Part shown: positions 19,103 through 42,569 of the stretch, piece by piece
How the letters are laid out: every line of letters begins with the position of its first letter
Numbering within the stretch: position 1 is the first letter of the stretch
Notes under the pieces: model-generated
Databases searched by the model: none
What the model saw: only the letters and a program-made list of their open reading frames with translations
What the model was told of the DNA's origin: nothing
Assembly: GCA_001662655.1 (NCBI GenBank)
Contig: KV460256.1
Length of the DNA stretch: 64,000 bases
Source of the DNA: Pseudogymnoascus verrucosus
Taxonomy: Eukaryota
Reading direction: 5' to 3' (one strand)
Made by a program: the position numbers and the translations under genes

Positions 19103-20310
19103 ATGCTAGTTCCTATGCCCTCTAGGGCTTTAGTAGATTCCTTCTATGTTCTATACATCTACTGCCTTTAGGCAATTTCCTATAGAGCTATAGCCTATAC
19201 TTATGTCTAGTCCTTAACTAGCTTAAAGTGTAGTTACTATACTTTATAGCATTCTATGTATATTCTAGTAGGTTTCCTATTGCTTTTTAGTTTTGCTTTT
19301 AGCTTGTTCTTAGGTTTATTTAGTGTTAACTTAGTAGGAATAGCTACCCTAGTTCCTAGGGACTAAGTTCGCTACTATTATTACTACTAAGGCAGCTACC
19401 CCCCTTATCCCTAACAATGTTATTACTACTACTATTAAGGCTAACTATGTCCTATTACTTGCTACTACCTCTATCTCTAAGTTCTAGGACAAGGCAACTT
19501 AGGACCTCTATAAGGAGGCCTATATAACTTACATAGCCCTTAAGTCTCTTAATTTAAGACTTAAGGTAAGTAAATCTCCTTTCCTAGTAGGGTATTAGTA
19601 CTAACCTAGGTTAGGCTGTTTGTTTGTTACTATACAGTCTTTAGATAGAGTAAGTAGAGGTTCCTAGCCTCTTAAAGGAGGTAGTAAACATAGTAGAGGT
19701 AGGTACTATAGCTATTGTTACTATTACTATAAAGTTAGTCCTAGTACCTACCCCCTATAGAAAAGAGAAGGAGAAGGAGAAGGAGGTTGTAACGCTAGGT
19801 CTTAAACTATAAGACTTATAGAGGTTTCGTTACGTTAGTTTACTTAATAGAGGAGGCAGGGGATTAGACATAAAGGCTTTTATAAAACACGTTATAGTAT
19901 ATAACAAATACTATATTAAGTTGAGCACGAAGCTCCTATCTAAGAACTAACTATCTACTTATATAGTAGCGTTATGCTAAAGGGAATAGTTAGAATAGCA
20001 AACTCCTTTGCTATTCTTGCTATTCCTGCTATTCTATCATGTGGGTTATTCTCTTTCTAGTACCTGTGATTCTTCTAGTACCTGTCCATCCGGTACCTCC
20101 TAATCCTTAGGTGCCTAACTGTCTTCTAGTACCTATAAGCCTAGGTGCTAGACACTCCTTAGGTGCCTAATACTTAACCCTGCCTTAAGGGCGGTTAAAT
20201 CGCTAACATCCTTATTACTACTATACTTAGGGTGTTGGCGATAGTGCTGCTAAAAACCCTAGCTGTAACAGAGGTAGAGAATAGGGTTAGGGCCTTCTAT
20301 AGAGAGTAGG
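19103..20310 (+). pseudogene. Family B antisense accessory gene, allele 1 (six-Cys Zn-cluster-like; 2 introns), RIPped and interrupted by a solo LTR
   Basis: ATG 19103. De-RIPped exon 1 reads approximately MPVPMPSGA..SFHVPCIxCLRAISHGAxAHTCVRSxTGSKCGYCTxQHSxCIP. Donors GTAGGT at 19268 and GTAAGT at 19566, with (G/C)TAAC branch sites and TAG acceptors. 3' end approximate. Confidence 0.65.
19788..20270 (-). mobile_element. Family A solo LTR (483 bp)
   Basis: TGTAACG...TGTAACA termini, TSD GAGGT on both sides. Confidence 0.95.
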
Positions 20311-23300: not shown

Positions 23301-26300
23301 TTACTATCTACCTTCTTTACAAACAGTATAGAGGAGGTAAACAAGCTATTACTATTAACTATAAAGCCCTTCTTAAGGTTCTAATAGGTATTACTTAGTT
23401 GCCTTAAGCTCTTTAGTACTTTATTAGTATAGTAGTAAGAAGGCGTTTAGTAAAGGGGCTTCTAGCTATATCCTATAATTATATATATAATGTAGGGGAA
23501 GCTAATTAGATTCTAACTTTAAAAAGACATTAGAATAGTTATAGTGCATCTATAGAAGCTTATTCTAAATAAGGTAGAGCGTTTCTTTATCCTTAGCTAC
23601 TTCCCTCTCCTAGATAATCTAGTTAATCTTATAAATACTTATTATAAAGAACTTAGAGTTGCTCTATATTATCTTATAGTAGAAAGCGTTTGCACTAATC
23701 TTATAAATTTAGACTAGTATAAAGCTATATAATAGGGTTTAGTGTTAAGAGGGAGGGACAACTCTACTTCTTCTATAATTCTTTCTCTTATATATAGATA
23801 GTCTGTTTCTTAGAGGATTTGCCTTTACTTACTTAGAGGGTCTATCTTTATAGGTTTCTATAGGTAAGGCCTATAGCCTTAAGGTTTTAAGGTATAGGTA
23901 GGTTAGTCTATTATCTTATACTATACTTAGTAGGGTAATAATAATAGTGTTATAATAGGCTGTTATTACTTTTATTTACATTAAGCGTCTACCCTTATAT
24001 TGTCTATTATTATAGTTAATAGCATTATCCTACTAGTTTGCATCTAATTAATAGGTAGGGTAATGTATAGATAGTTTATATAAGTAATAGGGTAAGGTAA
24101 TCTCTTTGCTCTAGCTAGGAGTAGGTAGGTACTCCTTTAGCTATACTAGCTAGCTCTTTATAGAGTTAAGTAGGATTTAGAAGTAGCTAAAAAGCTTCTT
24201 TCTAATTATTACATCTTGCGCTCTAAGATCTAGGAGCATAAAGGGGTAGTTATAAATTTAGTGTCCTTTAACTATTAAGTATAACTAAATATACTCTAAT
24301 ATATAGCTTTAGATATTTTGCTAAAATCTATATATAGGTACAAAGTAAAGTAGTTTCTATATAGGGCTCTAGAGTGCTTTTAACAGTTGTTATGTAAAAG
24401 GCTTATTAATAACAAGGTAGCTATTTGCTCCTATGTTAGTAAGTGACTTCATTTACACCTTAAGTCCATTTATACTTAGGGTTGTATTAACAAGAAATTA
24501 GGAGCCTCTTAAGAGTTCTTATAAATCTAGTCCTTATAGATTATATTTACATAGACCTAGGAAGGAGCCTTTCCCTAGGCCTTATTGTTTTCCTCTAAGG
24601 ATATATCTAACTAGTAGGCAACTACTTCCTCTTACTACTCTTTGTCCTTAGGGGCTTTATAATTAATCTCCTTAATAGTAGGGTTAAGTAGGCATTTATC
24701 CTAGAAATAGCCTAGCTTACTATACTTAAAACAGTTCCTAGATGTAGCTAGTATAGTAGTTTATATATAGCCTATAATGTCTAGCTTAGGGGCTATAAGT
24801 ATAAAGGGAGTCCTTAGGAAGGAAACTAGAGAGCTTCTTATCTACCTTAGTAGCTAGGCCTTTCTAGGGTTTATAGGTATAAACCTAGATAAGCTTAGGT
24901 AGGTAGGTCCTTAGGAGCTTAACTTACTACTCTTAGATAGGAAGCTTAACTTGTTATTCTAGTGCTACTCTTAATTAAAGGTAGTAAGTTCTTAGACTAT
25001 AGTATAGTAGTCTCCCTTCTATTAGCTTTTAATAACTACTATATAGCTATAGAATTAAGGGGTTAACTTGTTCTATATATACTAAAACTATTCTAACTCT
25101 ATAACTTATCTTATAATAGCTACACTTTAGAAGCAAGCATTAAACTCTAAGAAAGTCTTATTTATATATCCTTTCTCTCCTATTTAGAGGTTGTTAAAGA
25201 GGTTCTAGGCCTATTCTGTTTTATTACTAGTAAGGTAATATAAACCTAGTAGGTCTATTATCTTGTTAGCACTCTAAAACCTATACATTATAAATAGATA
25301 TTAAGGTTTAAGGTACTTCTTTACTAAGCTAGTTATAGTTCCTTATATTAACGCTCTCCTTAAGATGTTAGTAAGGTAGTAATCCTTATTAACTATAAGG
25401 TAGTCCTAAATAGACACACTCTATTATATAAAGGTATGTTCTATCCTTATAAGGATGCCTCCTTACTTAGGGTAGTTATAGCTGTTATATAGCGCTATTA
25501 AGACTTAGGGCCGTTATAGGTTAGTTGCAACTAACAGCCTTAGGTATATAACGTAAGGAAGCCTTAGGCAAATAGGGAGCTAGCTAAGTTAGAGTAGTTT
25601 TAGGTATTTTAAGGGAACAGCTATATAAGGTTATACCTTTATCTTTTTTATATCCTTCGTAGTAGACCTATAGGATTACACTAACTTCTATCTAACTTAT
25701 ACTCCTATATATAACTTCTTATAATACAGTGCCCTATGTCCTTACATTATATAAAAAAGATTACGCCTACTAGGGACAGCTATATGTAAATAATATCCTA
25801 CAACTAGAACGACTTAGGAGAACTGTTAAAACACTACTAACTACAACTTAGTAACATTTTAAAGTAGAGACCTAACGACTTTAAATAGCTGTAACCCTAG
25901 AGAACTTATAGACAACTAGTAGATTAGGGTTTAATCCTATAGAGTAAGCTAGTAAAGTCGCTAACGCGTTAGTGCTAAATAGGATATAAGATCCTTAAGA
26001 ACCCCCTTAAGCATAGAGGCAATTGTAAACAAGAGTGTTAATAGCTATAAGCTACTAGAAGTTAAACTCTTTTATATTAACACTAATACACCCCTAAACT
26101 AATATAAGGAAAATGACCTTAAACATCCCCTAAGACAATGATGGTTAACTGTTACAAATGTTAATAAGACAAACTACTGCTATAGCTATAACTACTATAC
26201 CTACTAATGATATACTAGATTAAATAGCAAACCTTAAGATCTAGATGTAAGAGATTAAGGAAATAATAGCTAACCTAGTAGCAACCTAGACTAGAATACC

Positions 26301-29300
26301 ATCTATGCTACTAGTAGACACTGTTAAAGTTATAGAGCAACGAACTTCCCCTATATAAAATACCCTTAAGACAGTTTAGTTGCTGCCTCTTTAAAACACT
26401 TGTTCTCTATTAATTCTAAGGAGGTATTCTAAAGACCCTCTAAATCGCTATAAGAAATCCACCATCTCTAAGAAGATTACGCCGCTTAGTAATAGGATAG
26501 AACATACCTTTATATAATAGAGCGCGTTCATTTAGGACTGCCTTATAGTTAATGAGGATTACTACCCTACTAACGTCTTAAGGAGAGCGTTAATATAGGG
26601 AACTACAACTAGCTTAGTAAAGAAGTACCTTAAACCCTAATACCTATCTATAACGCATAGGTTTTAGAGTGCTAACGAGATAATAGACTTACTAGGTTTA
26701 TATTACCTTACTAGTAATGAAACAGAATAGGCCTAGAACCTCTTTAACGACCTCTAAATAGGAGAGAAAGGATATATAAACAAGACTTTCTTAAAGTTTA
26801 AAGCTTGCTTCTAAAGTGTAGCTATTATAGGATAGGTTACTAAGTTAGAATAGTTTTAGTATATGTAGAACAAGTTGACCCCTTAATTCTGTAGCTACGT
26901 AGCAGTTATTAAAAGTTAATAGAAGGAAGACTACTATACTATAGTCTAAGAACTTACTACCTTTAATTAGGAGCAGCGCTAGAACAACAAGTTAAGCTTC
27001 CTGTCTAAGAGTAGCAAGTTGAGCTCTTAAGGACCTACCTACCTAAGCTTATCTAGGTTTACCCCTATTAACCCTAGAAAGGCCTAGCTACTAAGGTAGA
27101 TAAGAAGCCCTCTAGTTTCCTTCTAGAGGACTCCCTTTACGCCTATAGCCTCTAAGCTAGACATTATAGGCTACATGTAGACTACTATGCTAGCTACGTC
27201 TAGGAACTGTTTTAAGTACAGCAAGCTAGGCCATTTCTAGGACAAATGCCTACTTAACCCTACTGTTAAGGAGATTAACTATAAAGCCCTTAAGGACAAA
27301 GAGTAGTAGGAGGAAGTAGTCGCCTACTAGTTAGATGCATCCCTTAAGGAAAACGACAAGGCCTAGGGAAAGGCTCCTTCCTAGGTCTACGTAAATGTAA
27401 TCTATAAGGACTAGATTTACAAGAACTCTTAGGAGGCTCCTAATTTCTCGTTAATACAACCCTAAGTATAAACGGACTTAGGGTGTAAACGAAGTCACTT
27501 ATAGACATAAGAGTAAATGGCTACCTTGTTATTAATAAGCCTTTTACACAATAGTTGTTAAAAGCGCTTTAGAGCCCTATATAGAAACTGCCCTACTCTA
27601 TACCTATACATGGATTTTAGCGAAGTATCTAAAGCTACGTATTGTAGTATATTTAGTTACACTTAATAGTTAAAGGACGCTAAATATATAACTGCCCCTT
27701 TATGCTCCTAGATCTTAGAGCGTAGGATGTAATAATTAGGAAGAAGCTTTTTAGCTACTTCTAAATCCTACTCGACTCTATAAAGAGCTAGCTAGTATAG
27801 CTAAAGGAGTACCTGCCTACTCCTAGCTAGAGTAAAGAGATTACCTTACCCTACTACTTACGTAAACTGTCTATACGTTACCCTGCCTATTAATTAGATA
27901 CAAACTAGTAGGACGATGCCATTAACTATAACGACTAACGACATAAGGGTAAACGCTTAATACTAATGAAAGTGATAACAGCCTATTATAACGCCATTAT
28001 AATTACCCTACTAAGCTTAGTATAAGACGAGGGACCGACCTACCTACCCCCTAAAACCCTAACGCTATAGGCCTTGCCTATAGCAACCTATAAAGACGAA
28101 CCCTCTACGCGAGCTAAGGCAAATCCTCTAAGAAACGGACTATCTATATATGAAAGAAAGAACTATAGGAGGAGTAGAGTTGTCTCTCCCTCCTAACGCT
28201 AGACCCTATTATATAGCTTTACACTAGTCTAAATTTATAAGATTAGCGTAAACGCTTTCTACTATAAGATAATGCAAAGCGACTCTAAGTTCTTTACAAT
28301 AAGCATCTATAAGATTAACTAGATTATCTAGGAGAGGGAAGTAGCTAAGGATGAAGAAACGCTTTGCCTTATTTAGGACAAGCTTCTATATATGCACTAC
28401 AACTATTCTAATGTCTTTTTAAAGTTAGAATCTAATTAGCTTCCCCTACATCACATATACAATTACTAGATATAGCTAGAAGCCCCTTTACTAAACGCCT
28501 TCTTACTACTATACTAACAAAGCACTAAAGAGCTTAAGGCAACTAAGCAATACCTATTAGAGAACCTTAAGAAGGGCTTTATAGTTAATAGTAATAGCCT
28601 GTTTACCTCCCCTATACTGTTTGTAAAGAAGGTAGATAGTAAACTAAGATTTTGTATTAACTACTAGAAGTTAAACAGACTAACCTATAACGACCTCTAC
28701 CCTATCCTATATATTAACGAACTACTAGGATAGGTAGCAAAAGCAAAAATCTTCACGAAGCTAGACATTAGACAAGCCTTCTATCGTATATAAATAGACC
28801 CTAACTCTAAAGAGTACACGACCTTTTAGACTTAATATAGATCCTATAAATATAAAGTGCTGCCGTTTAGTCTAACGAACGGCCCTACAACCTATTAGAG
28901 GTATATGAACGACGTTCTTATATAATACTTAGACAACTTCTATACTGCCTACCTAGACAACATCCTAATCTACTCTAAGGACCCTATAGAATACATAGAC
29001 TACGTATATAAGGTCCTCTAACAGCTTTAAGAAGCAGGACTATAAGCTAACATTAAGAAATGTAAGTTTAACGTAACCTAGACAAAGTATTTAGGCTATA
29101 TCCTAACTACTACTAGTGTTGAAGCAGATCCTAAGAAGATTGAACCCCTCTAGAATTAGATCTAGCTAACAACTGTTATAGGCGTAAAGTCTTACCTTAG
29201 ATTCTATAGCTTCTAACGCTAATTTATTAGAAATTTTAGGAAAATAGCTAAGCCTCTCACTACTATCACTAGCCCCTTAGAACCGTTTCTATAGACTAAC

Positions 29301-31633
29301 GAATGTAAGAACGCTTTTAAAGAAATGTACTAACAGCTTTTAGCCATATAGGCGCTCTACTACTTTAACCCTAAATTGCCTACAAAGCTAGAAACAGACT
29401 CCTCTAACGGAGTCGTAGCTAGTGTTCTTTCTTAGGAACACCTAGATAAGCGATGGTATCCTATAAGCTTCTATAGTTACATCCTATCTAGGCAAGAGAT
29501 TAATTAGGAGATCTATAACAAGGAACTATTTGCTATTATAAAAGCGTTTGCAAAATAGAGGCTAGAATTAACATTAGTACGCTACTAAATCGACGTTTAC
29601 ACTAATTACTAATTACTAGAATACTTTATAACAACGAAGGTTCTTATAGTAAAGTAGGTTTAGTAGATAGAGCTACTCTCTAACTTCAACTTCTATATTA
29701 CATATATAGCTAGCAAGAACAATTAGAAGGTAGATATACTAAGCTAAAGAGAGCAAGACCTAATTACATAGTAGAAGGTTAAACTAGATAGCTATGTAAG
29801 GGTGCTTTTAGGCCTAGCCTAACTACACCCCTAAATTAGTGCTAAATTAGCACAAACGTACGTAGCCTTAATTAATGTAATAGACGCCTTAAACACCTAG
29901 GTCCCCTTTAACCTAATAGAAGCGCTCTACGTAGATAATAGGAGGTCGTTTACTAACACTTACATAAAGGACCCCCTACCTAATAGGTTTACAATAAAGG
30001 ACTAACTATTGTTATATAAGGGTTAACTATACGTAACCTAGCATACTAAGTTATGTACAAAACTTATATAGGAAGCACATAATTAAGTATTAGTAGCCTA
30101 CCCTAGTAGTAGAAAAACTTATTAGTTACTCGCCCTAAAGTATCATTAGGTTAGAATAGAAGCGGATTGTCTTTAATACGTACGTAATTACGTAACATAC
30201 TAACTTACTTACACTAACGTTACAAAGTAGTAAGGCTTCTTATACCCCCTACTAGTACTAGAATACCCTATACAATACCTAACGATAGACTTTAAGGAAT
30301 TCCTAAAGGATAAATACAGATTTAACAGCATCCTAGTGTTTATAGACTAACTTAGTAAGGGTTTAGTGTCTATACTGTGTTATAAGACCACTAACGCTTA
30401 CTAAATAGCGCAGCTATTCATTAAATGAATATATCGATTTAGACACACCCTAGAGTCAATCATTAGTAATTATAGACCCTAATTTATATCAGCTTTCTAG
30501 CGAGAGTTCTACTAAATTATAGGGGTTAAGATTAAGCTGTTAATAGCCTATCATAAGTAGACTAACGGGTAGATAGAAATCATAAATTAGTATATTAATT
30601 AGAGACTAAGGCCCTTCGTATTACATTACTAGGATAACTAGAGCAAGCTCATTCCTATTATAGATTAGGTGTAAATGACCCTTCCCTATACCTTAATTAG
30701 AATAACCCCCTACTAACTTAAGTACAGAACTAATCTACATACTAGTTAGGACTAGGAAACCCTAAAAGCCACAACCCCTAGGGAAGTTATAAACTAGAAG
30801 GAAGCTAAAGTAGTAGTAAACTGCATGTACTCTACCTAGACTTATGCAAAGGAGAACATAGCTAAAGCATAAGAGGATATGTCTAAATACATAGATCGAC
30901 GCTAACGAGCCATTAACTAGGATGTAGGGGACAAGGTTTACCTATCGACTAAGAATCTAAAAAATCACTACCCTAGCTATAAGTTAGGGCAACAATAGGT
31001 TAGACCCTATACAGTACTAGAACAAATCAGGCATGCCTTCTAACTAGACCTACTAAAGGGTTCTTAAATACATAATGTCTTCTCTCTAGACGTACTTATA
31101 AAGGCTCTAAATAACCTACTACCTAGTTAAGCAGCGCCTAAGCTAAGTAGCGAAGTTATAGATAGCCTAGAGGAGTAGGAGGTTAAAAAGATCCTCGCTA
31201 TAAGGATCTAGCGAAAACAACTTTAATACTAGGTATCCTAGGTTAGATACGATCTAGACCTAGAATAGTACCCCGCCTTAAACTTTAAGAACTCCCCCTA
31301 TAAAATCTAGGAGTTCTACATAGAGTACCTAAACCTACTAGGACTGCTGTAGGACCTACCTAGCTAGATTATAGAATAGGAGACAGGTAAACTAAGCTAC
31401 GATTATAAGAGGCATGGCAAAGTAGAGGAAAACAGCGTTGTTGCTACCTACGACACTAAACTAAACACCCTCTAAGCTAGGGCACCCTTAGAGCCATAGC
31501 CCTTATAGAAGCTACCCTTCCTAAACGTCTTACTAGCGTTATAACAAGCAGCTACTACTATAAGAGATGAAGGGTTAAAGTGACCCTATACAAAAGACTA
31601 CGCCTAAGTTCCCTCTAATATAGGGCCTATTAC

Positions 31634-32385
31634 CTAAGGTCGACGGTTACCCCCTCCTCCTCTACCTCTACTACCTCCTCTACCCCCCTCTTCCTCTTCT
31701 TCCCCCTACTACCGCCTACCTTTGCTGCTGTAGCAAGGGCGTTAGGGATCCTCTCTACTAACTCCCCTACTACATCTACTATAGAAGCTACCCTATTAAG
31801 GGCAGCGATCTCCTTCTCCTAGTTCACTAGGATTAGAGCTAATTTCTAGCCTACAACGGCTATAGCCTAGCGGACCTGCTATAGTCGTTAGCGTAAGAAC
31901 TAAAAACATATAAGGGACATAGAAAACTTACCTCTAGACTGTCCTTAACAGTAGCGTAGAGGGCGCAACTCTCTATATAGGCTAAAAGCTTAGCTAGGGA
32001 GCAGAACTTTAGCATATTAGCAGTAGCTAATGTAACTACACGCCTAATCTCTACTATAGCGGCCTTAATGGTAGTAGGGACAGGAGGGGTTGCTGCCTTA
32101 GTAGCTAGGAGCTTCTAGTACTCTAGGCTAGCAAACTAGGAGATCTATCTCTAGAGGTTAGCAACAGGTAAACAGACAAACCACAAAACTAAAAGCTAAA
32201 CGAGAACCTACTAGAACACACGTTACGTGTTAGGCTACATAGCGCTTATACTTAGAGCTTTCTAAGCTCTATATACATAAGATGGTGGGATCTCCGTCCT
32301 TCTTGCGCCCTTTAGCGCGCACGTAGTGCATATACTACTAGTAGAAAGCCATAGTAAGGGCGCTAGGAGGCGGGGGAACTAGCAT
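31634..32385 (-). pseudogene. Family B antisense accessory gene, allele 2 (six-Cys Zn-cluster-like; 2 introns; Gly/Arg/Glu-rich tail), RIPped
   Basis: ATG 32385. De-RIPped exon 1 reads approximately MPVPPPPGALAMAFHxxCMxCVRAKGRKKDGDPTIxCIxSxESSKCxRCVAQHVTCVP. Introns about 32211-32145 (GTAGGT..GCTAAC..TAG) and 31931-31879 (GTAAGT..GCTAAC..TAG). 3' end approximate. Confidence 0.65.
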
Positions 32386-33242
32386 CTTTAAATTAGAAAT
32401 CTACAATTTCCTATTAGCCTAACCTAAGTTATTACTACTACGCTAGCGCAGTTCCGTTACCTACTAAATCGTTAGTTGTGTTTTTATATCTAAAAACAAC
32501 CTATTAGCATCTAGCTATACTATTAGAAGGGCCACTTACTAGTCTTAGGAGGGGGGGTTAGCGTTGTTATTATAAAGAAAACAACAAGCTATAGGCGAAG
32601 CTCGAATTCATATTCTAGCTTATAATAAAGCTGTCTAAATCAGGTTAGCGCGAAATTTCCCCTTTACATTGAAATTCTACGTTAACATATACTACGTAGA
32701 CCCTATTTAATACTAATACAGACCCTCGTAACACTAATCGCCATATACATAATAAAGACGCAACTTTACGCAAACGGATTTAGACTACTTCTAGTGCCTA
32801 TATAGCTGCCTACCATTAGCTATCTAGACAAACAAAGGGCATTCTAGTCTTAGCGCCTATACCTTATCTACTAACCTAAATAAGGGCTCATTATAGCAGC
32901 TACTTAGCTAGCGTGCTTTAAGGACAAAGTACCTTCTTAAGGTAGAGGGTAGTGTAAGGATACCTCCTTACTTAGGGTAGTTATAGCCGTTACATAGCGC
33001 CATTAAGACTTAGCACTGTTATAGGTTAGTTGCAACTAACAGCCTTAGGCATATAACGTAAGGAAGCCTTAGGCAAACAGGGAGCTAGCTAAGTTAGAGC
33101 GGTTTTAGGTATTTTAAGGGAACAGCTATATAGGGTTACACCTTCATCTTTTTTATATCCTTTGTAGTAGACCTATAGGATTGCACTAACTACTATCTAA
33201 CTTATACTCCTATATGCAACCTCTTGTAATACAGTGCCCTAT

Positions 33243-36200
33243 TGTAACGCTAGGTCTTAAACTATAAGACTTACAGAGGTTTCGTTGCGTTGGTTTACTT
33301 AACAGAGGAGGTAGGGGATTAGACACAAAGGCTTTCGTAAAACACGTTATAGTATATAACAGAATACTATATTAAGTTGAGCACGAAGCTCCTATCTAAG
33401 AACTAACTACCTACTTATATAGAGGCGTCGTGCTAAAGGGGACTGTAAGGAACTGTAGGAACTGTAAGAGTTCTAGCAGTTCTCACGGTTCTATTACGTG
33501 AGTGCTATTCCGGTACCTATGCTGTTTCCGGTACCTGCAACTCCGGTACCTCCTAATTCCTAGGTGCCTGACTGTCTTCTAGTACCTGTAAACTTAGGTG
33601 CTAGACACTCATTAGGTGCCTAATAACTAACCCTGCCTTAAGGGCGGTCGAATCGCTAACATCCTCATTACTACTATATTCGGGGTGTCGGCGATAGTGC
33701 TGCCGAAAACCCTAGCTGTAACACTAGGTCCCTCCCTAAGAGGCCTAGTCCCTAGGACTTGCTAACTAAGAAAGTTGCTAACTACTTAAGTAGGGTGATG
33801 CCTACTACTATCCATGGGGCAGGTCAGGCTGCGACCATGTCTTCTTCCAAACATACTAAAATCAAAGAACGTCATCTCCTTACTCTCCGTGTTGCTACCA
33901 CTGGGGTCGAAATGTCCCTGTGTACTCGATGTGAACGTTGTGAAACGAAATGCGTCATGTCTGGCGATTCTAGACGATGCGCTAAATGCATAAAATCAAA
34001 CGTTAAGTGTGACGCCGCTGGTCCTTCTCTTGGAGATTGGGAACGCCTCTAGCGTGAAGAGGAACGCTTGTCGCGAGAGATGGAGCTCGCCATTTCCTAG
34101 GCCTAAGAGGCTATGGCGAAGCAGCTCTAAGTCTCTAAGTAACAACGTCTGTTGAAGAGTCGTAGGGGGGAGATGTTGCGCCGTGGGCTTCGGACACTCG
34201 ATGAGCTAGAAGAAGCTGAAGCAAGTGAACGCGCGGCCCTGGCAAGAGCAGCTCGCCTACCTGCCTCTCCGCCTACTACAAATCCTGAGGCCCCTGACCC
34301 TAAACTGGATTTCTCAACCTTCGATCATGCGGCCTTGTCGCCGTTGTACTGGCCGAATTAGAGTGTCGACGGCAGAACTCCGCTAACAACTCTAGGCAGC
34401 TGAGATTCCTTCTCGACTCCCACGAGTTGTCCGTAGGTTCGTAATCTTTCCATTTAATTAAAAACTCTTCTCGGCGTCCTACTAACCTTCTGTCTAGGAT
34501 CGCCTCAACCTCATATTCGATAATCTCATTTTCGGGTTAAAGTTCGGTATCTGTCGCAATTGGGGCATCCCCTCTTGCTAGTTCTAATAATGAGACATAA
34601 AACACTAGATAGAGTTTGGAGTTCTTAGGTAGCTGCAGCTTGTAATTAACTGAGCTAACTTTCTCTAATATCTTGAATGGTCCCAATTTCTTGAAGTCTA
34701 ACTTCGTGCTTAGTCGTTTCGTTTTAATGTGTTTCTAGAGTAGGTATACTTTATCCCCCTCCTTAAAGGCAGGTTCCATACTGCGCTTCCTGTTTGCGTA
34801 TGTAGCGGATCGTTCATTTAAGAACTAGATGTCCGTCGCTAGTTGTTTCTAGAAGGAAAGTATCTTTAATACTTCTAACGTTCCTTCCTCAGAGCGAAAT
34901 TTATCTGGTCTTGGCGTCTTATACGCCTCTAGTTGCCATCCGTTGTTGGCAAAGAATGGTGAGACTTTTGTTACCTCTAACGGTGACGAATTATATGCGA
35001 ACTCTGCTAAATGTAGGTACTAAACCCAATTATCCTGTTTAGCGTTAACATAGCTCTGCAAGTATGCTTCTAACGTCTAGTTGGTTCGTTCTGTCTGTCT
35101 ATCCGTTTGTAGATAAAAAGCTGTAGACAGCTTATAGTTTGTTCCGAGCTGCGCCATAACTGTCTGCTAGAATTTGGATGTAAAGAGCTTGTCTCGATCC
35201 GAAATTATCTCGTCTGGTAGTCTATGCGCTGCGACGATGACTTTTAGAAAGATATATGCTAACGCCTTCACGTCTAACGCTTCTTTAAACGGCGTGAAGT
35301 GTGCTTCCTTCGTAAGTCGGCAGTTAGAGACCATAATAGAGTCTGCCACAAACTCTGTCATTGGTTCTTTCGATAATGGCAACTTAACAATGAAGTCAAT
35401 TGCTATCGAGGACCATGCTCGTTTTGGTGTTAGTGGGGACTTTAAAAGTCCGTATGGTGCGTGTCTATTTGCTTTTGACTTCTAGCAAATGTTGCATCCC
35501 AACACAATTGTTTCTACCTACTTCCTTAGACCTGGGAAGTAGTAGTGTCGTGCAATTCGTTCGAAGGTTCGTGTTACTCCCTAGTGACCGTGTGCTGGTA
35601 ACGAGTGTTGTTCTTGCACCAGCGGGCGTCTCATTTGACTTAGGACATACACTAATCCTTTAAATCGGATCAGCCCTTGTTCGTCGATAAAGAAGTTCCC
35701 TTCGACTTTGTTTAAGGTTCGCTTCGCTATTTCGTCTGTTGCGTAAGCGTTCTTGAGTCTCTGCTTAAGTTCTGTGTCTTCTACGATGGCGATCGTGGCT
35801 AGTAGTTCGTTGTATTGCATTCCTACGTCTGTCTTCTTTAATATTGCTCTAGGCCTTTCTTCCTTCGGGCCGATGTAGTCGGTCCTTCTGCTAAGAGCAT
35901 CTGCTCTTGCATTCTTAGAGCCTTTGCGATAGGTTATCGTGAAGTTGTAGGCTGCGAGGGTTTCTGCCTAGCGGACTTGTCTGCAGTTCAAAACCTTAGT
36001 CGTGGTGAAGTATATAAGGTTCTTGTGATCTGTCCATACTTGCATAGTGTAGGTGGATCCCTTAAGGTATACGCGCCACTGCTCAAAGGCAACGACAATA
36101 GCCAGTAGCTCCTTGTCGTGGATGTTATAGTTAAGCTCCGCGGGTGACAGTTTCCTAGAGTAGTATGCAATTAGTTTGAACTTACCGTTCTCGTCTAGTT

Positions 36201-39200
36201 GGTTTAGACATGCTCTAATCGCGAAATCAGAAGCGTCCGTCTTAAGGACGATCTTCTTTGTAGGGTTAAATGTCGTAAGGATGGGTGCCTCCGTAAACTT
36301 CGTTTTAAGTTCCTAGAAGGCAGCCTCCGCTTTATCTGTCCATTTGAACACGAGATCCTTCCTAGTGAGCTCCGTGAGTGGTTGAGCTACCTTAGAATAT
36401 CCCGCAATGAACTGACGGTAGAAGTTAGCGAAGCCTAAGAAGGCTTGTACTTCCTTAACTGTGGTTAGTGTTAGCCATTCCAACACTGCCGTGACCTTTG
36501 CTTAGTCCATCTTAATGCCGTGCGTTCCGATAATGTAGCCTAAGAATTCGACTTGGTTTTTATAGAACTTACATTTCTCTAGCTTCAACAGTAGGTTGTA
36601 TTCCTTCAGCTTCTAGAGGACGAGCTTAACATGCCGAGCATGTTCGTCCCTGTTTGCTAAGTATACTAGTATATCGTCTAAGTAAACGATGGTGAATATG
36701 TCTAGATATTCATGTAAAGCGTCATTCATTAAGCGTTGCATAGATGCGGGGGCGTTAGTCAACCTAAAGGGCATGACTTGATATTCGAATAGGCCATAGT
36801 AGGTGCAGAATGCTGTTTTCCACTCCTCGCCGTTAGCTATCCAGATTAGGTTGTACGCGCCACGCAGATCTAGCTTGGTGAAGATCTTGGCTCCTTAGAA
36901 TCTATCGTGTAACTCATTGATTAACAGTAAGGCGTATCGATCCTTTATCGTTATGTTGTTTAATGCTCGATAGTCCACGCAGGGTCGTTTGCTCCTATCC
37001 TTCTTAGGAACCCATAACATCGGGCTTCCTGCAGGAGATTTGGATGGTCTAATAAATCCTTTCTTAAGGTTATCGTCAATGTATTCCTTTAGCAGTTTTA
37101 GCTCATCTACTAACATCTAGTATATTGGTCCGAACAGTAGACTCTTTCCTTCTTCTAAGGGTATTACATGATCCTATGGTTGGTGCTTAGGAAGCGCCTC
37201 GTTCTTAGGGCCTTCCTAGAATAGCTGCTCGTATTCCTTATACTCCACCGGTATACTCGTCGGTAAGGGTGCCTAGGCTAGGTCACTAGGCTCTATAGAG
37301 GTCGCATACACCTCGCGTCAGCCCTAGGATGGTTTCTCCCGTTGTGGCGTGTCCGTTCGTTGTTTACACGCGCACTGGCTCATTACAACTTTCTCGTTCC
37401 ACCAGTCGATCTAGGGGTTGTGTTTCTTGAGCCATGGCACACTAAGGATACATGCATGGTTGTCTATGTGTACAATGTCAAATTGGATCGTTTCCTTGTG
37501 TCCGCGTAGCATAATCATTTCCAATGGGACCGTCTCGTAGGTCACCATCCCCTTATTAGTCGAGATGGGCTCTCCATCTACAACTATAAGTGGGTAAGGG
37601 TCGGTTTTCATTTGCGTTTTGAAACCTTAAGCGTCTGCTACTTTCTTCGTTATAAAGTTGCCCGTTGCTCCTAAGTCAATCATGGCTCGGAGGTGTCGCT
37701 GTTGTATCTTAGCGACTATATATAGCTGCATGCTGCCTCCTGTGGCGCATAGCTGCTTTGTACTAGGCCTCTCTTTGTTACTCGCCGGTGGCCTACCGTC
37801 GAGGACTCCTAGTTTTTTAACTCGTCCGAGGAGTAATAGTGATGTTCATCATCCTCTATAGGCGGTCCTTGGGAAGATTGTCCTCCCCATCCTTCTGCTT
37901 CATCTAGCAGGTGCAGGTATTTCTTGTATACCTGTCGTTGTTTCTTCAACAGTAGTTCTCCTTTAGACTAACTTCGTCTAAGGGCATGAATTTGGTCTAT
38001 ATCCGTAAAGTAGACCTAAGGTGCAATTTTCGGAAATAGTCGATACTAGGTCTTTTTCCGTAGGTGACTCTCGCAGTCATCGTACTTGCAGTGTTCCTAG
38101 AATATATATGGGTGCTAGGGGTGATCAATCCTTAATGCATCCAACTTTGTCAATTCCTGTTCCTCCTTTGTCTTGCCCGTGAGCTCGGATTTCTCTATGG
38201 TTTTACGTAACCTTTCTACGTCTCTATTGATGGGTTCGTAGTCTATAGCAGCTTGGTCTGCTCGTAGTTCCTAGGGTTTAGGTCCCTAAGTGTCTTCCTG
38301 CTATTCGTCTTGCGCGTCATATTCCGCAAGCTTGTATTTCAACCACATAGTGGCTTCCTCAGAGGTGTGGTTCGCTCCTTAGGGCTCCCTTCCTCGTGGG
38401 TACCTAGGGCGGCACCTCATGGCGCGAACTACAACTTCCTAGTCTTGTCGAGTGCCTATCCATCCCGTCGGGGGTGGTGGTACAGGAATCGCTCTTAGAG
38501 TTCCTTGTCGAAGCATGGTCTGTCTGTAGACGTCGACCACTCCTAGTAGATTCTCCTTAAATGCGATCTCCTTCGCGTCTTCTTCAAACTCCTTCAGCTA
38601 GAGTTTCTAGGATTCCGTTAATCCCCTGTTTAGGAGTTCGTTCTCCTTCTCGAGTGATGCGTTGAAGTCGTTGAGATCTTCGTCGCCTGAGCTCTCTTCT
38701 TCTAGGGTGCTATCGCCCGTGATCCCCTAGTCGGGTTTGTTCACGAACATGGCGTTTAACTGCCCCTTCTAAGTGGCGTTAAGTTGTCTCCTGAATTTCT
38801 TATGTCCTCCGTTCCCTTTCTTAGGTTGCTTGCAGTCTTAGGCCATGTGGCCCGGCTTGTTGCAATTAAAACACAACCGTTCCTTAAGCTGTCGCTCTTT
38901 GTTTAGGTTACGGGGTCTCCCACTAGGCTTGAACGTAGCGTCGAGCTCTATGGGCTAAGGCTAATGACTCTTCTAAGTTCTCCGCTTCTAGGTCCATTGG
39001 TGGCTGGTTGTTCCTCCCTTCCTTTCGAGTTAGCGTTCGTAGTAACGATTGTCGATCTTCTAGGCCATCTTAATTAATTCTTTGAGGTCATCTAGTTTGT
39101 CCGACTAGGAGATTTCGTCCTTTACATGATCCTTCAGCCCCTTGTAGTATCGGTCGCATATAGCCTTGTCTCCCTAACTAGTGAGGGGGGCATGCTGCTA

Positions 39201-40224
39201 GAACTTAGCAGTATATGTAACTGCCGACCCCCTCTGCTTAAGGGCCTCGAGGGCTTGCACTACGTTTCTTCTTTCGTCAACGTCCCCGAAGTTCGCCTTA
39301 AGTTGCTTAACGAAGCTAGCCTAAGTGATGAAGATATCCTTAGTGCCTTGGTTAGCCGTCGTGGTGACTCTTCCGTCAGCTGCTTAGTGGCTCATGTAGT
39401 CCGTTAGGTAATTGGCAATCCAGTCGGAGGCTGAGCCCCTTAGGAGGGCCACTGCCCATAGGACTTGCTATACTTCAAAGGCAAAGTGCTTAGCGTTGAA
39501 GGCCATCTAGAGTTCCGTCTAGATAAGGAAGCTCTTAAGCTTCTTGCAGTCCCCATTGAAGGTGTCTAGGAATGCAATCTTAAGTTTGTCTAAGGGGTGT
39601 GGTCCCCTAGGCGCAGGCGTGGTGGTAGGTAATGGGACAGGCTCGACAGCTGCCTTGCCCTTCGACCCTACGTTAGATGCTGAATCGTTTCTAGCCATGT
39701 TGCTTGTATATGAGCCGGTACCTCATAGAAGTGGTGCTCAAAGTGTAACGCTAGGTCTTAAACTATAAGACTCATAGAGGTTTCGTTGCGTTGGTTTACT
39801 TAACAGAGGAGGCAGGGGATTAGACATAAAGGCTTTCATAAAACACGTTACAGTATATAACAAAATACTATATTGAGTTGAGCACGAAGCTCCTATCTAA
39901 GAACTAACTACCTACTTATATAGAGGCGTCGTGCCAAAGGGGACTGTGAGGAACTATAGGAACTGTAAGAGTTCTAGCAGTTCTTACGGTTCCATCACGT
40001 GAGTGCTATTCTAGTACCTATGCTGTTTCCGGTACCTGCAACTCTAGTACCTCCTAATTCCTAGGTGCCTAACTATCTTCCGGTACCTGTAAACTTAGGT
40101 GCTAGACACTCATTAGGTGCCTAATAACTGACCCTGCCTTAAGGGCGGTCGAATCGCTAACATCCTCATTACTACTATATTCGGGGTGTCGGCGATAGTG
40201 CCGCCGAAAACCCTAGCTGTAACA
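33243..40224 (-). mobile_element. Full-length family A chromodomain Gypsy element (6982 bp; LTRs 39744-40224 and 33243-33723), moderately RIPped
   Basis: Two 481-bp TG...CA LTRs, TSD CCTAT, gag ATG near 39698, zinc knuckle CFNCNKPGHMAxDC near 38850, protease MIDxGATGNF near 37670, RT YLDDILVY near 36675, RNase H, integrase, chromodomain WKDYEPTDNSWE near 34430, and PPT. Confidence 0.97.
33837..34403 (+). pseudogene. Family A antisense accessory gene, allele 2 (189 codons; Zn2Cys6-like plus coiled coil), with RIP stops
   Basis: MSSSKHTKIKER...CTRCERCETKCVMSGDSRRCAKCIKSNVKC (C-x2-C-x6-C-x8-C-x2-C-x6-C), then a helical E/R/L-rich region. One frame, with internal stops all TAA/TAG (RIP type). 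Confidence 0.85.
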
Positions 40225-40238
40225 CCTATGTCCTTACA

Positions 40239-40674: not shown

Positions 40675-42569
40675 TGTAACGCTAGGTCTTAAACTATAAG
40701 ACTTATAGAGGTTTCGTTACGTTAGTTTACTTAATAGAGGAGGCAGGGGATTAGACACAAAGGCTTTTGTAAAACACGTTATAGTATATAACAAATACTA
40801 TATTAAGTTGAGCACGAAGCTCCTATCTAAGAACTAACTATCTGCTTATATAGTGGCGTTGTACTAAAGGATATCAAAGATATTATAGATAACAAATATC
40901 TAACATATCGTTGTTATCCATTACGTAGGTCTTACGATATGATTAGGTCTAAGGACTAGAGGTCTCTAGATCCAACTAATCCTATAATGTCCCCTACTCT
41001 TAAGACTATAGGGCGTAGGAGCTACTTAGTTCCTATGCTCCTAGGTCGTGCGCCTAGCTTAGTCCCTAGGCCTAATTAGGTCTAGCGCTACTAATGTTCT
41101 AGCGCTTAGCTTAGTTGTTCGACCTAACAAGGTTGTACGCTGTCTAGTTTCTAACAGTAGATACTCTGTTCTAATATTAGAAACCTACATAGTCTATAGT
41201 TTCCTTAAGGGCTATAACACTAGGTCCCTCCCTTAAGGCCTAGTCCTAAGGCCTATTACTAACTAAGAAAAACGCTAACTACTTAAGTAGAGCAATGCCT
41301 ACTTGTTCTATAGGCAGGTTAGGCTGCGACTATATCTTCTTCTAAACATACTAAAATTAAAGAACGTCTTGCTCTAGCTTAACGAATCCTAACTACTAGC
41401 ATTAAGATGCTGCCCTATAGTTAATGTAAAAAGAAATGTGTAAAATGTGTTGTATTAGACGATTCGAAACGATGTAGTAAATGTATCTGTGTTAACGCTC
41501 ACTATAATGCTAGTGGTCCTTCCGCTAGCAACTAGGATAAGCTCGAATGCAAAGAACGTCGCTTGTAAGAGGAGGAGGAAGAGGCAATGGCTAAAATCCT
41601 TTGCCTTTGCAAGCAGCAACGTCTGTTCCGTTCCTAAGCTAAAGACATACTTCGTTAGGGTCTGAAAACTATAGACGAACTCAACGAGGTAGAGGAGAAA
41701 GAGCGTAAGGAAGCTAAGTCTAAAGAGGCCTTTCCTTACAGTCCTTCTACAACCGTCTCTAGGACTGCTGTCCCTAACCTAGACCTTTTCGCAGCCCTAT
41801 CTCCTAGGTTTTTCGAACGTTAGGGTGTCGACGGTAGAACTCCGCTAGCAGCTCTAGGCAGCTAAGGTTCCCCCTTAACTCCTATAAGTTATCCGTAGGT
41901 TCGTAACCTTTCCATTTAATTAAAAACTCTTCTTAGCGCCCTACTAACCTTCTATCTAGGATCGCCTTAACCTTATATTTAATAACTTCATTCTTAGGTT
42001 AGAGTTTAGTGTCTGTTGCAATTGGGGTATCCCCTCTTACTAGTTCTAATAATGAGACATAAAATACTAGGTAGAGTTTAGAGTTCTTAGGTAGCTGCAG
42101 TCTATAATTAACTAAGCTGACTTTGTTTAATATCTTAAATGGTCCTAATTTCTTAAAGTCCAACTTCGTACTTAGTCGTTTCGTTTTGATGTGTTTTTAG
42201 AGTAGGTATACTTTATCCCCCTCCTTGAAGGCAGGTTCTATACTGCGCTTCCTGTTTACATATGTAGCGGATCGTTCATTTAAGAATTGGATGTCCGTCG
42301 CAAGTTGTTCGTGGAACGATTTTAGTTATTCCACCACGATTAGGGCTTGTTCAGCTCGTGCCTCGTCCGGTCTTGGTTGCCTATATGCTTCCGGGTCGTG
42401 CGCCCGGCTCAGTCCCCAGGCCCAATTGGGTCTAGCGCCACTGATGTTCTGGCGCTCGGCTTAGTCGTTCGACCCAACAAGGTTGTACGCTGTCTGGTTT
42501 CCGACAGCAGATACTCTGTTCTAATATCGGAAACCTGCACGGTCCATAGTTTCCCCGAGGGCCGTAACA
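40675..42569 (-). mobile_element. Internally deleted family A element (1895 bp): 3' LTR 40675-41219, accessory gene, chromodomain/integrase tail, distal part of 5' LTR
   Basis: TSD GGTAA on both sides. PPT at about 41220-41240. Integrase tail joins the LTR U3 at about 42390. Confidence 0.92.
41332..41865 (+). pseudogene. Family A antisense accessory gene, allele 3 (178 codons), RIPped
   Basis: (M)SSSKHTKIKERLALA*RILTTSIKMLP(Y)S*CKKKCVKCVVLDDSKRCSKCICVNAH(Y)NASGPS...EAMAKIL...ILR*GLKTIDELNEVEEKE...GVDGRTPLAALGS*. Confidence 0.82.

What the first reader, a model, noticed from the sequence alone, without database searches (positions are those of the whole stretch)
31634..32385. Second Gypsy family (B) also carries an antisense six-Cys gene, with two conserved spliceosomal introns
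Seen: both B copies have an antisense gene downstream of pol (19103-~20310 + and 32385-~31634 -), starting from an identical TTTCTAATTTAAAGATGCTAGTTCC context. Exon 1 de-RIPs to C-x2-C-x12/15-C-x8-C-x2-C-x6-C. A phase-0 GTAGGT intron follows two codons after the sixth Cys in both. Exon 2 shares KAATP[LP][IV]P, and a second GTAAGT intron follows. The two alleles are otherwise very divergent, though gag-pol is near-identical. Inference: introns survive retrotransposition only because they are antisense to the genomic RNA, so this is a separately transcribed, spliced TE gene. Two families with dissimilar LTRs sharing this design points to a general accessory system in fungal chromoviruses.
Basis: partly seen in the sequence, partly recalled or inferred. 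Interest (0 to 1): 0.85.

Follow-up and report, generated by a model that had tools for sequence, protein, structure and literature searches.

The report
Spliced antisense gene inside fungal retrotransposon
Two mutation-wrecked copies of a fungal Ty3/Gypsy jumping gene each carry, backwards between the polymerase gene and the end repeat, the remains of a real three-exon gene for a small six-cysteine protein that is still intact in related fungi; backwards extra genes of this kind are already known from the grey-mould fungus, so this is a new variant, not a new kind.

Summary
Both RIP-mutated family B Gypsy copies carry the gene antisense to pol: 32385-31630 (-) and 19103-20309 (+). The second copy is split by a solo LTR.

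The decisive result is. Copy 2, translated with X at stops, finds intact 208-aa hypothetical proteins of Pseudogymnoascus. The 67-nt and 53-nt gaps between them begin with GT and end with AG. The intact protein has the predicted C-x2-C-x15-C-x8-C-x2-C-x6-C pattern. At all six positions each window copy has Cys or Tyr, as RIP (TGY>TAY) would leave.

The family A antisense gene belongs to the published BRTN family of Boty elements. That family is large and Gal4-like: a Zn2Cys6-spaced cluster followed by a coiled coil. In 17 of 23 environmental loci it lies tail-to-tail with Gypsy pol.

Homology of B to BRTN is inconclusive. No RNA evidence could be obtained. The two B alleles differ far more in the exons (44-50% identity) than in the flanks (81-90%).

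Verdict: a real gene, now dead here. It is a new intron-bearing variant of a known kind of accessory gene and probably encoded a nuclear zinc-binding regulator.

The parts
32212..32385 (-). Copy 2, coding exon 1: ATG, six-Cys module (2 Cys and 4 Tyr left after RIP, 4 RIP stops)
   Evidence: tblastn of P0183 residues 1-57 covers 32385-32215 at 67% identity.
32145..32211 (-). Copy 2, intron 1: 67 nt, GTAGGT...CTAAC...ATAG, phase 0
   Evidence: Gap between the tblastn blocks of P0183 residues 58 and 59; sequence.
31932..32144 (-). Copy 2, coding exon 2: 71 codons, holds TKAATPPVP
   Evidence: P0183 residues 59-129 at 70% identity; translation.
31879..31931 (-). Copy 2, intron 2: 53 nt, GTAAGT...CTAAC...TATAG, phase 0
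   Evidence: Gap between P0183 residues 129 and 130; sequence.
31630..31878 (-). Copy 2, coding exon 3 with the TAA stop: helical region, GKKRKRG basic patch, acidic tail
   Evidence: P0183 residues 130-207 at 77% identity; P0184 at 92% over 62 residues. Translation.
32386..32646 (-). Copy 2, conserved block upstream of the ATG (81% identical to copy 1). Holds two further intron-like stretches that the 337-aa model P0185 splices out. Either 5' UTR or extra coding exons.
19103..19267 (+). Copy 1, coding exon 1: the divergent allele
19268..19343 (+). Copy 1, intron 1: 76 nt, GTAGGT...TTAAC...ATAG
   Evidence: 67% identical to copy 2 intron 1
19344..19565 (+). Copy 1, coding exon 2: 74 codons, holds TKAATPLIP
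   Evidence: (P0184 at 31% over 64 residues, E 4.5e-6)
19566..19614 (+). Copy 1, intron 2: 49 nt, GTAAGT...CTAAC...TTAG
19615..20309 (+). Copy 1, exon 3 (19615-19787 plus 20276-20309, stop TAG). Interrupted by a family A solo LTR at 19788-20270, flanked by the 5-bp duplication GAGGT.
   Evidence: (D2/D4)
31170..31328 (+). Chromodomain at the end of pol of copy 2. The antisense gene ends about 300 nt beyond it, tail to tail.
32952..33242 (+). 3' LTR of copy 2. Its last 9 nt lie at 40230-40238, beyond the nested family A element. A purine-rich tract lies just upstream.
   Evidence: (D7)
33798..34400 (+). Family A antisense gene. Intronless BRTN-family member with five internal RIP stops plus a RIP-derived TAG at the W before the last 14 codons; matches the full length of the profile.

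Best explanation
Family B is a RIP-inactivated Ty3/Gypsy chromovirus. Between pol and the 3' LTR, on the opposite strand, it carries an accessory gene with at least three coding exons.

In intact relatives the gene encodes a protein of about 208 aa with three parts:
- an N-terminal six-cysteine module (C-x2-C-x15-C-x8-C-x2-C-x6-C) whose first loop is basic (RAKGRKKDGD);
- a middle region without recognisable domains;
- a C-terminal KKRKR patch followed by an acidic tail.

Shown: the gene, its exon junctions and its Cys pattern are conserved. They are kept between two alleles whose exons are almost saturated with change, and in intact homologues of Pseudogymnoascus.

Inferred:
- The gene is transcribed from its own promoter in or next to the 3' LTR.
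- Its introns survive retrotransposition because their signals lie on the strand complementary to the genomic RNA.
- The product is a nuclear zinc-binding regulator that acts in trans on the element's own expression. Its nearest analogue is BRTN of Boty-type elements, which here looks like a Gal4-type Zn2Cys6 plus coiled-coil protein.

In this window both copies are dead.
For: Intact homologues. The frame-0 translation of copy 2 finds P0183 (E 6e-44) and P0184 (E 1e-22). Cluster mates P0185 and P0187 come from P. destructans.

Exon junctions. P0183 maps as three blocks exactly on the predicted exons, separated by 67 and 53 nt that begin with GT and end with AG. Exon 2 is in another frame than exons 1 and 3, so splicing is needed for the ORF.

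Cys pattern. The six Cys of P0183 correspond to Cys or Tyr in both window copies, and shared stops correspond to W39 and Q52. RIP indices are TpA/ApT 2.1-3.1 in the B copies against 0.72 in genic DNA.

Coding constraint between the two copies. Exons 1 and 2 score 59 and 87; none of 2000 shuffles reaches either score. The proposed frame is the best of six. Exon length differences are multiples of three.

Linkage to the element. Both copies lie inside B elements. Contigs of four other organisms cover the region at 80-99% likeness.

Analogy. The family A gene is BRTN. 140 of 174 family proteins fit Zn2Cys6 spacing. The AF2 model has pLDDT 84, and all of its ten best Foldseek matches are Zn2Cys6 DNA-binding domains. 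hhalign of P0183 against A1 aligns all six Cys, with the extra nine residues as a loop insertion (E 5.5e-5, probability 66%).
Against: - No RNA evidence exists; the homologues are computational gene models.
- One model (P0185) starts 129 residues further upstream and P0183 is labelled partial, so the start codon is uncertain.
- Pfam finds nothing in P0183 at E up to 10.
- The AF2 model of the B protein is unusable (pLDDT 45).
- The second profile comparison (A3 against A4) gives only 3.4% probability, E 0.013. The BRTN profile finds nothing in the RIPped B frames.
- The first loop (x15 or x12) breaks the nearly invariant x6 of Zn2Cys6 domains. The BRTN coiled-coil motif EMLRRGL is absent.
- Exon 3 is not detectably conserved between the two alleles.
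- Only two database clusters (5 proteins), all from Pseudogymnoascus, were found.
- Foldseek E-values for the A model are all 0.25 or worse.
Confidence: 0.6

Rival explanations
1. The protein is not a transcription regulator. It is a fast-evolving factor in a conflict with the host, for example one that counters silencing or restriction. The cysteine module would then be a scaffold and the variable exons the contact surface.
For: Exons are 44-50% identical between the two copies (transversions 24-30%). Intron 1 is 67% identical (transversions 12%). The flanks are 81-90% identical (transversions 0-8%). Divergence begins within exon 1, a few codons after the ATG, and stops exactly at the stop codon.
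Against: Intron 2 is as divergent as the exons (57% identical, transversions 27%). The exon-versus-intron contrast rests on 116 intron positions. Alignment at this divergence is unreliable. RIP blurs any dN/dS estimate. A swapped cassette from another B lineage would give the same sharp borders.
Confidence: 0.15
2. The antisense RNA itself is what matters, through transcriptional interference with the element or formation of double-stranded RNA with the genomic RNA. The ORF would be secondary.
For: The gene is convergent with pol. In family A relatives the two coding regions overlap tail to tail (L001 gene to 894, chromodomain from 1075 down to 854). Retrotransposons of Botrytis are known sources of small RNAs (PMC8365987, abstract and passages read).
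Against: The reading frame, Cys columns and exon lengths (multiples of three) are kept between alleles that are near saturation at the DNA level. This points to selection on the protein.
Confidence: 0.12
3. It is a host gene fragment captured by the element (a passenger) with no role in the element's life.
For: P0184 is a model that fuses exons 2-3 to an unrelated N-terminus on a 92.7-kb contig. P0185 lies on a 1.7-Mb contig. The genomic contexts of these could not be seen.
Against: The position and orientation are the same in two anciently diverged alleles, and the same as BRTN in another family. No non-TE homologue was found. The region is covered by contigs of four other organisms (862-1579 contigs laid on the whole 4.5-kb stretch per run).
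Confidence: 0.08
4. It is not a gene. The pattern is read into a RIP-mutated 3' untranslated region by chance.
For: RIPped DNA is rich in TAY codons, so Tyr-to-Cys 'de-RIPping' is permissive. Copy 1 exon 1 has 9 Tyr.
Against: Intact homologues have exactly the predicted Cys and junctions.
Confidence: 0.02

Closest known systems
brtn / BRTN, the additional antisense gene of Boty-like Ty3/Gypsy elements of Botrytis cinerea and Sclerotinia (Zhao et al. 2011, Virology 417:248). The paper itself is not held; it is known here from citations in PMC8365987, PMC7264820 and PMC4227169 (passages read).
   Same: An extra gene between pol and the 3' LTR, antisense to gag-pol, in a fungal chromovirus. It encodes a small protein with six cysteines; the last three spacings (x8, x2, x6) are identical. 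The window's family A gene is a true member: the A1 profile scores BRTN's cluster representative P0042 at E 3.7e-54.
   Different: - The B gene has two coding introns, possibly more upstream. BRTN-type genes are one uninterrupted segment in 22 of 23 loci.
- The first Cys loop is x15 or x12, not x6.
- There is no EMLRRGL coiled-coil region.
- Sequence homology is inconclusive.
Gal4-type Zn2Cys6 binuclear-cluster transcription factors (Pfam PF00172; GAL4, PUT3, PPR1, LEU3, Pho7)
   Same: Six Cys arranged in two CxxC-containing halves, with basic residues after the first CxxC. For BRTN (family A) there is also a linker and a coiled coil, as in Gal4.
   Different: For B the defining x6 first loop is not met and Pfam gives no match. 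For A all matches are below curated or significance thresholds.
Antisense additional ORFs of plant Ty3/Gypsy elements (aORF-3R: Grande gene23, RIRE2, Retand, PvRetro13), reviewed in PMC7264820 (passages read)
   Same: The same place and orientation in the element. Function unknown, with a regulatory nuclear role proposed.
   Different: A different kingdom and lineage (Tat/Retand elements are non-chromoviruses). No sequence relation was tested or expected.
HBZ of HTLV-1, an antisense-encoded, spliced bZIP protein made from the 3' LTR
   Same: A working analogy: a retroelement's antisense, spliced transcript encodes a nuclear DNA-binding-type regulator.
   Different: An unrelated protein class and host. 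It is an analogy only.

Membership tests
BRTN family (antisense gene of Boty-like elements) | Lies between pol (chromodomain end) and the 3' LTR, on the strand opposite to gag-pol | tested here: met
   Both B copies. BRTN-type genes lie this way in 17 of 23 metagenome loci.
BRTN family (antisense gene of Boty-like elements) | Significant sequence similarity to the BRTN profile | tested here: inconclusive
   - HMM against the RIPped frames: nothing.
- blastp of the RIPped B frames (window translations, X at stops) against 174 family proteins: best E 0.22.
- hhalign P0183 against A1: probability 66%, E 5.5e-5.
- hhalign A3 against A4: probability 3.4%, E 0.013.
BRTN family (antisense gene of Boty-like elements) | Coiled-coil region with the EMLRRGL..LDEL motif after the Cys cluster | tested here: not met
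   The motif is invariant or nearly so in A1 and absent from P0183.
Zn2Cys6 binuclear cluster (PF00172) | C-x2-C-x6-C-x5-12-C-x2-C-x6-8-C spacing (consensus recalled) | tested here: not met
   The B protein has C-x2-C-x15-C-x8-C-x2-C-x6-C (P0183), with x12 in copy 1. The A family meets it in 140 of 174 proteins.
Zn2Cys6 binuclear cluster (PF00172) | Match to the Pfam model at its gathering score | tested here: not met
   P0183: no family at E up to 10. A family: 16 of 28 members match at E up to 1, best 1.2e-4; the window's own copy scores 9.7 bits against a cut-off of 21.
Zn2Cys6 binuclear cluster (PF00172) | Fold of the cluster domain | tested here: inconclusive
   B model: pLDDT 45, unusable. 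A model: pLDDT 84; the ten best Foldseek matches are all Zn2Cys6 domains (rmsd 2.1-2.6 A over 32-34 residues for Pho7, LAC9 and LEU3), but E is 0.25 or worse.
DUF3716-like Cys domain (lead from earlier findings of this scan) | Match to a Pfam DUF3716 model | tested here: not met
   No Pfam family for P0183, P0002 or P0003 at E up to 10. DUF3716 is not among the 25 listed of the 30 families that A1 members match.
Ty3/Gypsy chromovirus (the carrier element) | RT, RNase H, integrase and a C-terminal chromodomain in that order, flanked by LTRs | tested here: met
   RVT_1 at E 2.8e-24, RT_RNaseH_2 at 6.6e-18, Integrase_H2C2 and SH3_Tf2-1 in one frame. The chromodomain was recognised by eye and by its likeness to family A's. 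LTRs are D7.
Spliceosomal introns | GT...AG borders, a branch-point-like CTAAC, and a spliced product confirmed by RNA | tested here: inconclusive
   Borders and CTAAC/TTAAC are present in both copies, and the homologous protein is continuous across them. No RNA holder was listed.

The most novel reading that the evidence does not exclude
Fungal chromoviruses as a group encode their own antisense-strand cysteine-cluster DNA-binding regulators, made from the 3' LTR side. These would be a counterpart of retroviral accessory proteins such as HBZ or Tat. The B type would be an intron-bearing offshoot whose coding exons diversify faster than its first intron and its flanks, because it is locked in a conflict with host silencing or with competing element lineages.
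Probability: 0.2. Interest if true: 0.75.

Novelty: new variant of a known kind. Interest (0 to 1): 0.5.

Why it matters
LTR retrotransposons are usually taken to need only gag and pol. This window gives a second, structurally distinct antisense gene in a fungal chromovirus. It has introns that can persist only because they lie on the non-genomic strand.

The window also shows that the published BRTN family is very large: 1706 clusters at 50% identity. BRTN looks like a Gal4-type zinc-cluster protein and is consistently linked to Gypsy pol.

Together these make a testable proposal: many fungal retrotransposons carry their own regulator.

There are also practical consequences.
- These genes sit in public genomes as 'hypothetical proteins', and some are fused into wrong gene models (P0184, perhaps P0185).
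- TE annotation pipelines that expect only gag-pol will miss them.
- The sharp contrast between saturated exons and well-kept flanks is unexplained and would repay a population-level study.

Tried and rejected
- Whole genome of the window: not held.
- RNA evidence: no RNA holder listed, so the splicing test could not be run. Reads were laid on four DNA runs. Its tables show only 40 of 1267 differences, so the Cys codons in those relatives could not be read.
- Exon 2 alone as a protein query: 369 candidates, none at E up to 10.
- RIP-tolerant 31-nt IUPAC pattern of the KAATP stretch. It hits both window copies but nothing in metagenome contigs.
- BRTN alignment against viral contigs: 600 pattern matches, none confirmed.
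- BRTN HMM and blastp against the RIPped B frames: nothing significant.
- AF2 of the B protein with a 4-row alignment: pLDDT 45, not usable; no fold search was made on it.
- ESM Atlas for P0183: only unnamed Ascomycota clusters, best score 0.90.
- PDB sequence search with P0183: gamma-SNAP at E 0.007 over a helical stretch; judged chance.
- First 54 residues of the P0185 model: not found in or near the B LTRs (Smith-Waterman scores 17-24).
- A TCCGGTACC triple repeat in the family A LTR raised the idea of a CGG-type binding site. CCGG is not enriched upstream of BRTN-type genes in 13 metagenome loci, so the idea was dropped as a general feature.
- Taxon names for 20 BRTN-family representatives: only Botrytis came back, so the family's range is not established.
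- Literature. Searches found brtn citations. None of the 12 papers listed holds 'Zn2Cys6'. The original Virology paper is not held, so what it says about BRTN's domains or introns is unknown to me.
- Error corrected. Searches started copy 1 exon 3 one base late (19616 instead of 19615). One search repeats the test in the right frame and still finds no significant similarity.
Full report
**Setting.** The window is fungal DNA with a block of nested, RIP-mutated LTR retrotransposons at about 1-42600, followed by ordinary genes.

RIP indices:

| Region | TpA/ApT | (CpA+TpG)/(ApC+GpT) |
|---|---|---|
| Two family B copies | 2.1-2.2 | 0.33-0.43 |
| Genic part | 0.72 | 1.26 |

Family B is a Ty3/Gypsy chromovirus. 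One frame of copy 2 carries RVT_1 (E 2.8e-24), the RNase H domains, the integrase zinc domain and the Tf2 SH3 domain, and then a chromodomain at 31170-31328.

Copy 2 lies on the + strand, with LTRs at about 25450-25747 and 32952-33242 (D7). Copy 1 lies inverted at about 18305-25447 and lacks its 5' end (I1 and I2). A full family A element (33243-40224) is inserted 9 nt before the end of copy 2's 3' LTR, with the duplication CCTAT.

**The observation.**
- Both copies share an identical 32-nt stretch around the ATG.
- Exon 1 reads MLVP... and ends two codons after the last Cys column, directly before GTAGGT.
- The first intron (67 nt in copy 2, 76 nt in copy 1) has CTAAC or TTAAC near its 3' end.
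- Exon 2 aligns without a gap from the 3' splice site and shares TKAATP[PL][VI]P.
- GTAAGT follows in both. The second intron (53 and 49 nt) has CTAAC.

Exon 2 is in a different frame from exons 1 and 3. Only splicing gives one ORF.

**Is it more than chance?** Translations of exon 1 and exon 2 of the two copies score 59 and 87 by Smith-Waterman. None of 2000 shuffles reaches either score. In both exons the proposed frame is the best of the six in-register frames: 59 against 17-38, and 87 against 25-57.

Exon 3 is the exception. In the corrected frame it scores 33, and 156 of 2000 shuffles reach that. Searches started copy 1's exon 3 one base late; one search corrects this without changing the conclusion. 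Only the basic-then-acidic tail is shared.

Copy 1's exon 3 is also interrupted by a family A solo LTR (19788-20270) flanked by GAGGT. The ORF resumes after it and ends at 20307-20309.

**Intact relatives.** This is the decisive result. The frame-0 translation of the copy 2 gene, with X at stops, was searched against 5.8 billion proteins. It returned two hits among 685 candidates:
- P0183: 208 aa, hypothetical protein, partial, Pseudogymnoascus sp. VKM F-103, E 6e-44.
- P0184: 213 aa, Pseudogymnoascus sp. 03VT05, E 1e-22.

P0183's cluster also holds P0185 (337 aa), P0186 (64 aa) and P0187 (175 aa), all from P. destructans.

tblastn of P0183 on the window gives three blocks:

| P0183 residues | Window coordinates | Identity |
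|---|---|---|
| 1-57 | 32385-32215 | 67% |
| 59-129 | 32144-31932 | 70% |
| 130-207 | 31878-31636 | 77% |

No residue is lost or added at the two gaps.

P0183 has C18, C21, C37, C46, C49 and C56. This is the predicted C-x2-C-x15-C-x8-C-x2-C-x6-C. At these six columns copy 2 has Y Y C Y Y C and copy 1 has Y C Y C Y Y. This is what RIP does to TGY codons (TpG>TpA). The stops shared by both copies fall on W39 and Q52 of P0183.

A seventh candidate, Y15 in both copies, is Arg in P0183. So there are six Cys, not seven.

Limits of this evidence:
- These proteins are computational gene models.
- P0183 is labelled partial.
- P0185 extends 129 residues upstream. Residues 55-127 of that extension map onto the element's own sequence upstream of the ATG, through three more intron-like gaps (32925-32827, 32615-32553, 32491-32456).
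- P0185's first 54 residues were not found in the window.
- P0184 joins exons 2-3 to an unrelated N-terminus.

The start of the gene is therefore uncertain. The identical context around the ATG may be conserved as a 3' splice site as much as a start.

**Linkage to the element elsewhere.** No whole genome was held and no RNA run was listed.

Logan contigs of four other organisms (X2, X3, X5, X6) cover every one of the 30 bins of 30500-35000 at 80% likeness or more. X3 record 9 runs from 31444 to 32269, that is from the pol-side flank into exon 1. X2 record 3 runs from 31683 to 32857 with no gaps across both introns. X2's differences are mostly window-T to C (304) and window-A to G (229), so its copies are less RIPped.

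The table shows only 40 of 1267 differences. The Cys codons in these relatives could not be read.

**The family A gene is BRTN.** The window's family A element carries an intronless ORF, antisense to pol, at 33798-34400. It has five internal RIP stops, and a sixth RIP-derived TAG falls on the W before the last 14 codons.

Evidence on this family:
- It has 27 homologues at E up to 0.01 among 1020 candidates.
- A profile of them finds 1706 representative proteins at E up to 1e-3 among 1.84 billion; 726 reach 1e-10 and 118 reach 1e-30.
- One representative, P0042 (E 3.7e-54), clusters with 'putative BRTN [Botrytis cinerea]'. This is the product of brtn, the antisense gene of Boty-like elements described by Zhao et al. 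2011. That paper is not held; it is cited in PMC8365987, PMC7264820 and PMC4227169, of which I read passages.
- 140 of 174 family proteins fit C-x2-C-x4-20-C-x5-12-C-x2-C-x6-8-C. The commonest spacing is 2,6,8,2,6.
- 16 of 28 members match Pfam Zn_clus at E up to 1, best 1.2e-4. The window's own copy scores 9.7 bits against the 21-bit cut-off.
- The profile's best PDB matches are GAL4, PUT3, LAC9, LEU3 and Cep3, at E 0.47-8.5 (6 of 8 rows).
- An AF2 model from a 107-row alignment (pLDDT 84) shows an N-terminal helix, a small Cys domain and a long helical hairpin.
- All ten best Foldseek matches of that model are Zn2Cys6 DNA-binding domains, though none has E below 0.25.

So BRTN looks like a Gal4-type protein, on consistent but individually weak evidence.

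In 23 metagenome loci that encode relatives, 17 have Gypsy pol on the opposite strand directly downstream. Sixteen of these show a chromodomain and L016 shows RT only. Of the six without:
- L004, L018 and L020 have under 100 nt beyond the match;
- L019 has 179 nt;
- L007 and L022 have room but no hit.

In 22 of 23 loci the gene is one uninterrupted tblastn segment. The window holds two more BRTN-like copies, at 41314-41862 (+) and 2109-1639 (-).

**Is the B protein a BRTN relative?** This is not settled.

For:
- The place and strand are the same.
- There are six Cys with identical last three spacings.
- hhalign of P0183 against the BRTN alignment pairs all six Cys, treating nine loop residues as an insertion (probability 66%, E 5.5e-5).

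Against:
- A second comparison gives probability 3.4%, E 0.013. It used a B alignment that is weakened by P0184's foreign N-terminus.
- The BRTN HMM and blastp find nothing in the RIPped frames.
- Pfam finds nothing in P0183.
- The EMLRRGL coiled-coil motif is absent.
- The first loop is x15 or x12 instead of x6.
- The B gene has introns.
- The AF2 model of B is unusable (pLDDT 45).

**An unexplained feature.** The two B alleles differ in a way RIP cannot explain.

| Segment | Identity | Transversions |
|---|---|---|
| Exons | 44-50% | 24-30% |
| Intron 1 | 67% | 12% |
| Intron 2 | 57% | 27% |
| 260-nt block upstream of the ATG | 81% | 8% |
| 300 nt beyond the stop | 90% | 0.00 |
| LTR | 83% | 6% |

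For comparison, a shuffled exon 2 aligns at 43% on average and 52% at most.

A second divergent block (58% identical, transversions 21%) lies next to the LTR. pol itself is a mosaic: 90% identical in the 5' part and 81% in the middle.

Two explanations fit. Either the accessory gene is an old cassette exchanged between B lineages, or its coding sequence changes unusually fast. Two copies cannot tell these apart.

**Mechanism.**

Shown:
- A conserved, TE-borne, antisense gene of at least three coding exons for a six-Cys protein, now inactivated by RIP in both copies and by an LTR insertion in one.

Inferred:
- It has its own promoter in or near the 3' LTR.
- Its introns are retained because they are antisense to the genomic RNA.
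- The protein binds zinc.
- It is nuclear, from the KKRKR patch.
- It regulates the element in trans, by analogy with BRTN's Gal4-like build and with plant aORF-3R genes (PMC7264820).

I put about 0.9 on the gene being real and TE-borne, and about 0.35 on the regulator mechanism.

**Novelty.** Antisense extra genes between pol and the 3' LTR are published for Boty and for several plant elements. Earlier notes of this scan report similar Cys-rich antisense genes in other fungal genomes (unchecked leads). Their DUF3716 label does not fit P0183 by Pfam.

New here:
- a second, intron-bearing type beside BRTN in the same genome;
- its confirmation by intact homologues;
- the size and Gal4-like look of the BRTN family;
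- the exon-restricted divergence.

In the papers I could search, none of the 12 listed by the search for Zn2Cys6 with LTR retrotransposon, antisense and Gypsy holds the term Zn2Cys6. The original brtn paper could not be read.

Noticed in passing
window 33243-40224 and 40225-40238: The full-length family A element is inserted 9 nt before the end of B copy 2's 3' LTR. It has the 5-bp target duplication CCTAT, and the LTR's last 9 nt (GTCCTTACA) follow at 40230-40238. A is far less RIPped than B (TpA/ApT 1.5 against 2.2), which fits a later arrival.
   Followed up: partly
window 19783-20275: A family A solo LTR (19788-20270), flanked by the duplication GAGGT, splits exon 3 of the copy 1 antisense gene.
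   Followed up: yes
window 41314-41862 (+) and 2109-1639 (-): Two further BRTN-like genes (69% and 38% identical to P0004 by tblastn). Each lies next to family-A-like pol and LTR fragments, so the window holds three BRTN-type genes and two B-type genes.
   Followed up: partly
window 33509-33552: The family A LTR carries three direct copies of TCCGGTACCT, 18 and 15 nt apart; RIPped versions appear in the solo LTR at about 20055-20100. This is a possible factor-binding array. CCGG is not enriched upstream of BRTN-type genes in 13 metagenome loci.
   Followed up: partly
window 32647-32954 vs 18603-18841: A second strongly divergent block (58% identity, transversions 21%, 75 gap columns) lies just inside the 3' LTR of the B copies. 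A well-kept 260-nt block separates it from the divergent coding exons.
   Followed up: no
window 20307-25447 vs 26494-31636: pol of the two B copies is a mosaic. The 5' part is 90% identical (transversions 1%) and the middle is 81% (transversions 4.8%), which suggests recombination between B lineages.
   Followed up: no
protein P0184 (database, Pseudogymnoascus sp. 03VT05): This gene model joins about 80 unrelated N-terminal residues to exons 2-3 of the B-type gene and skips 20 residues at the start of exon 3. It is probably a mis-annotation or a TE fragment beside a host gene.
   Followed up: no
window 57246-63998 (-): An open frame of 2250 codons runs off the window's end. It was not examined.
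   Followed up: no
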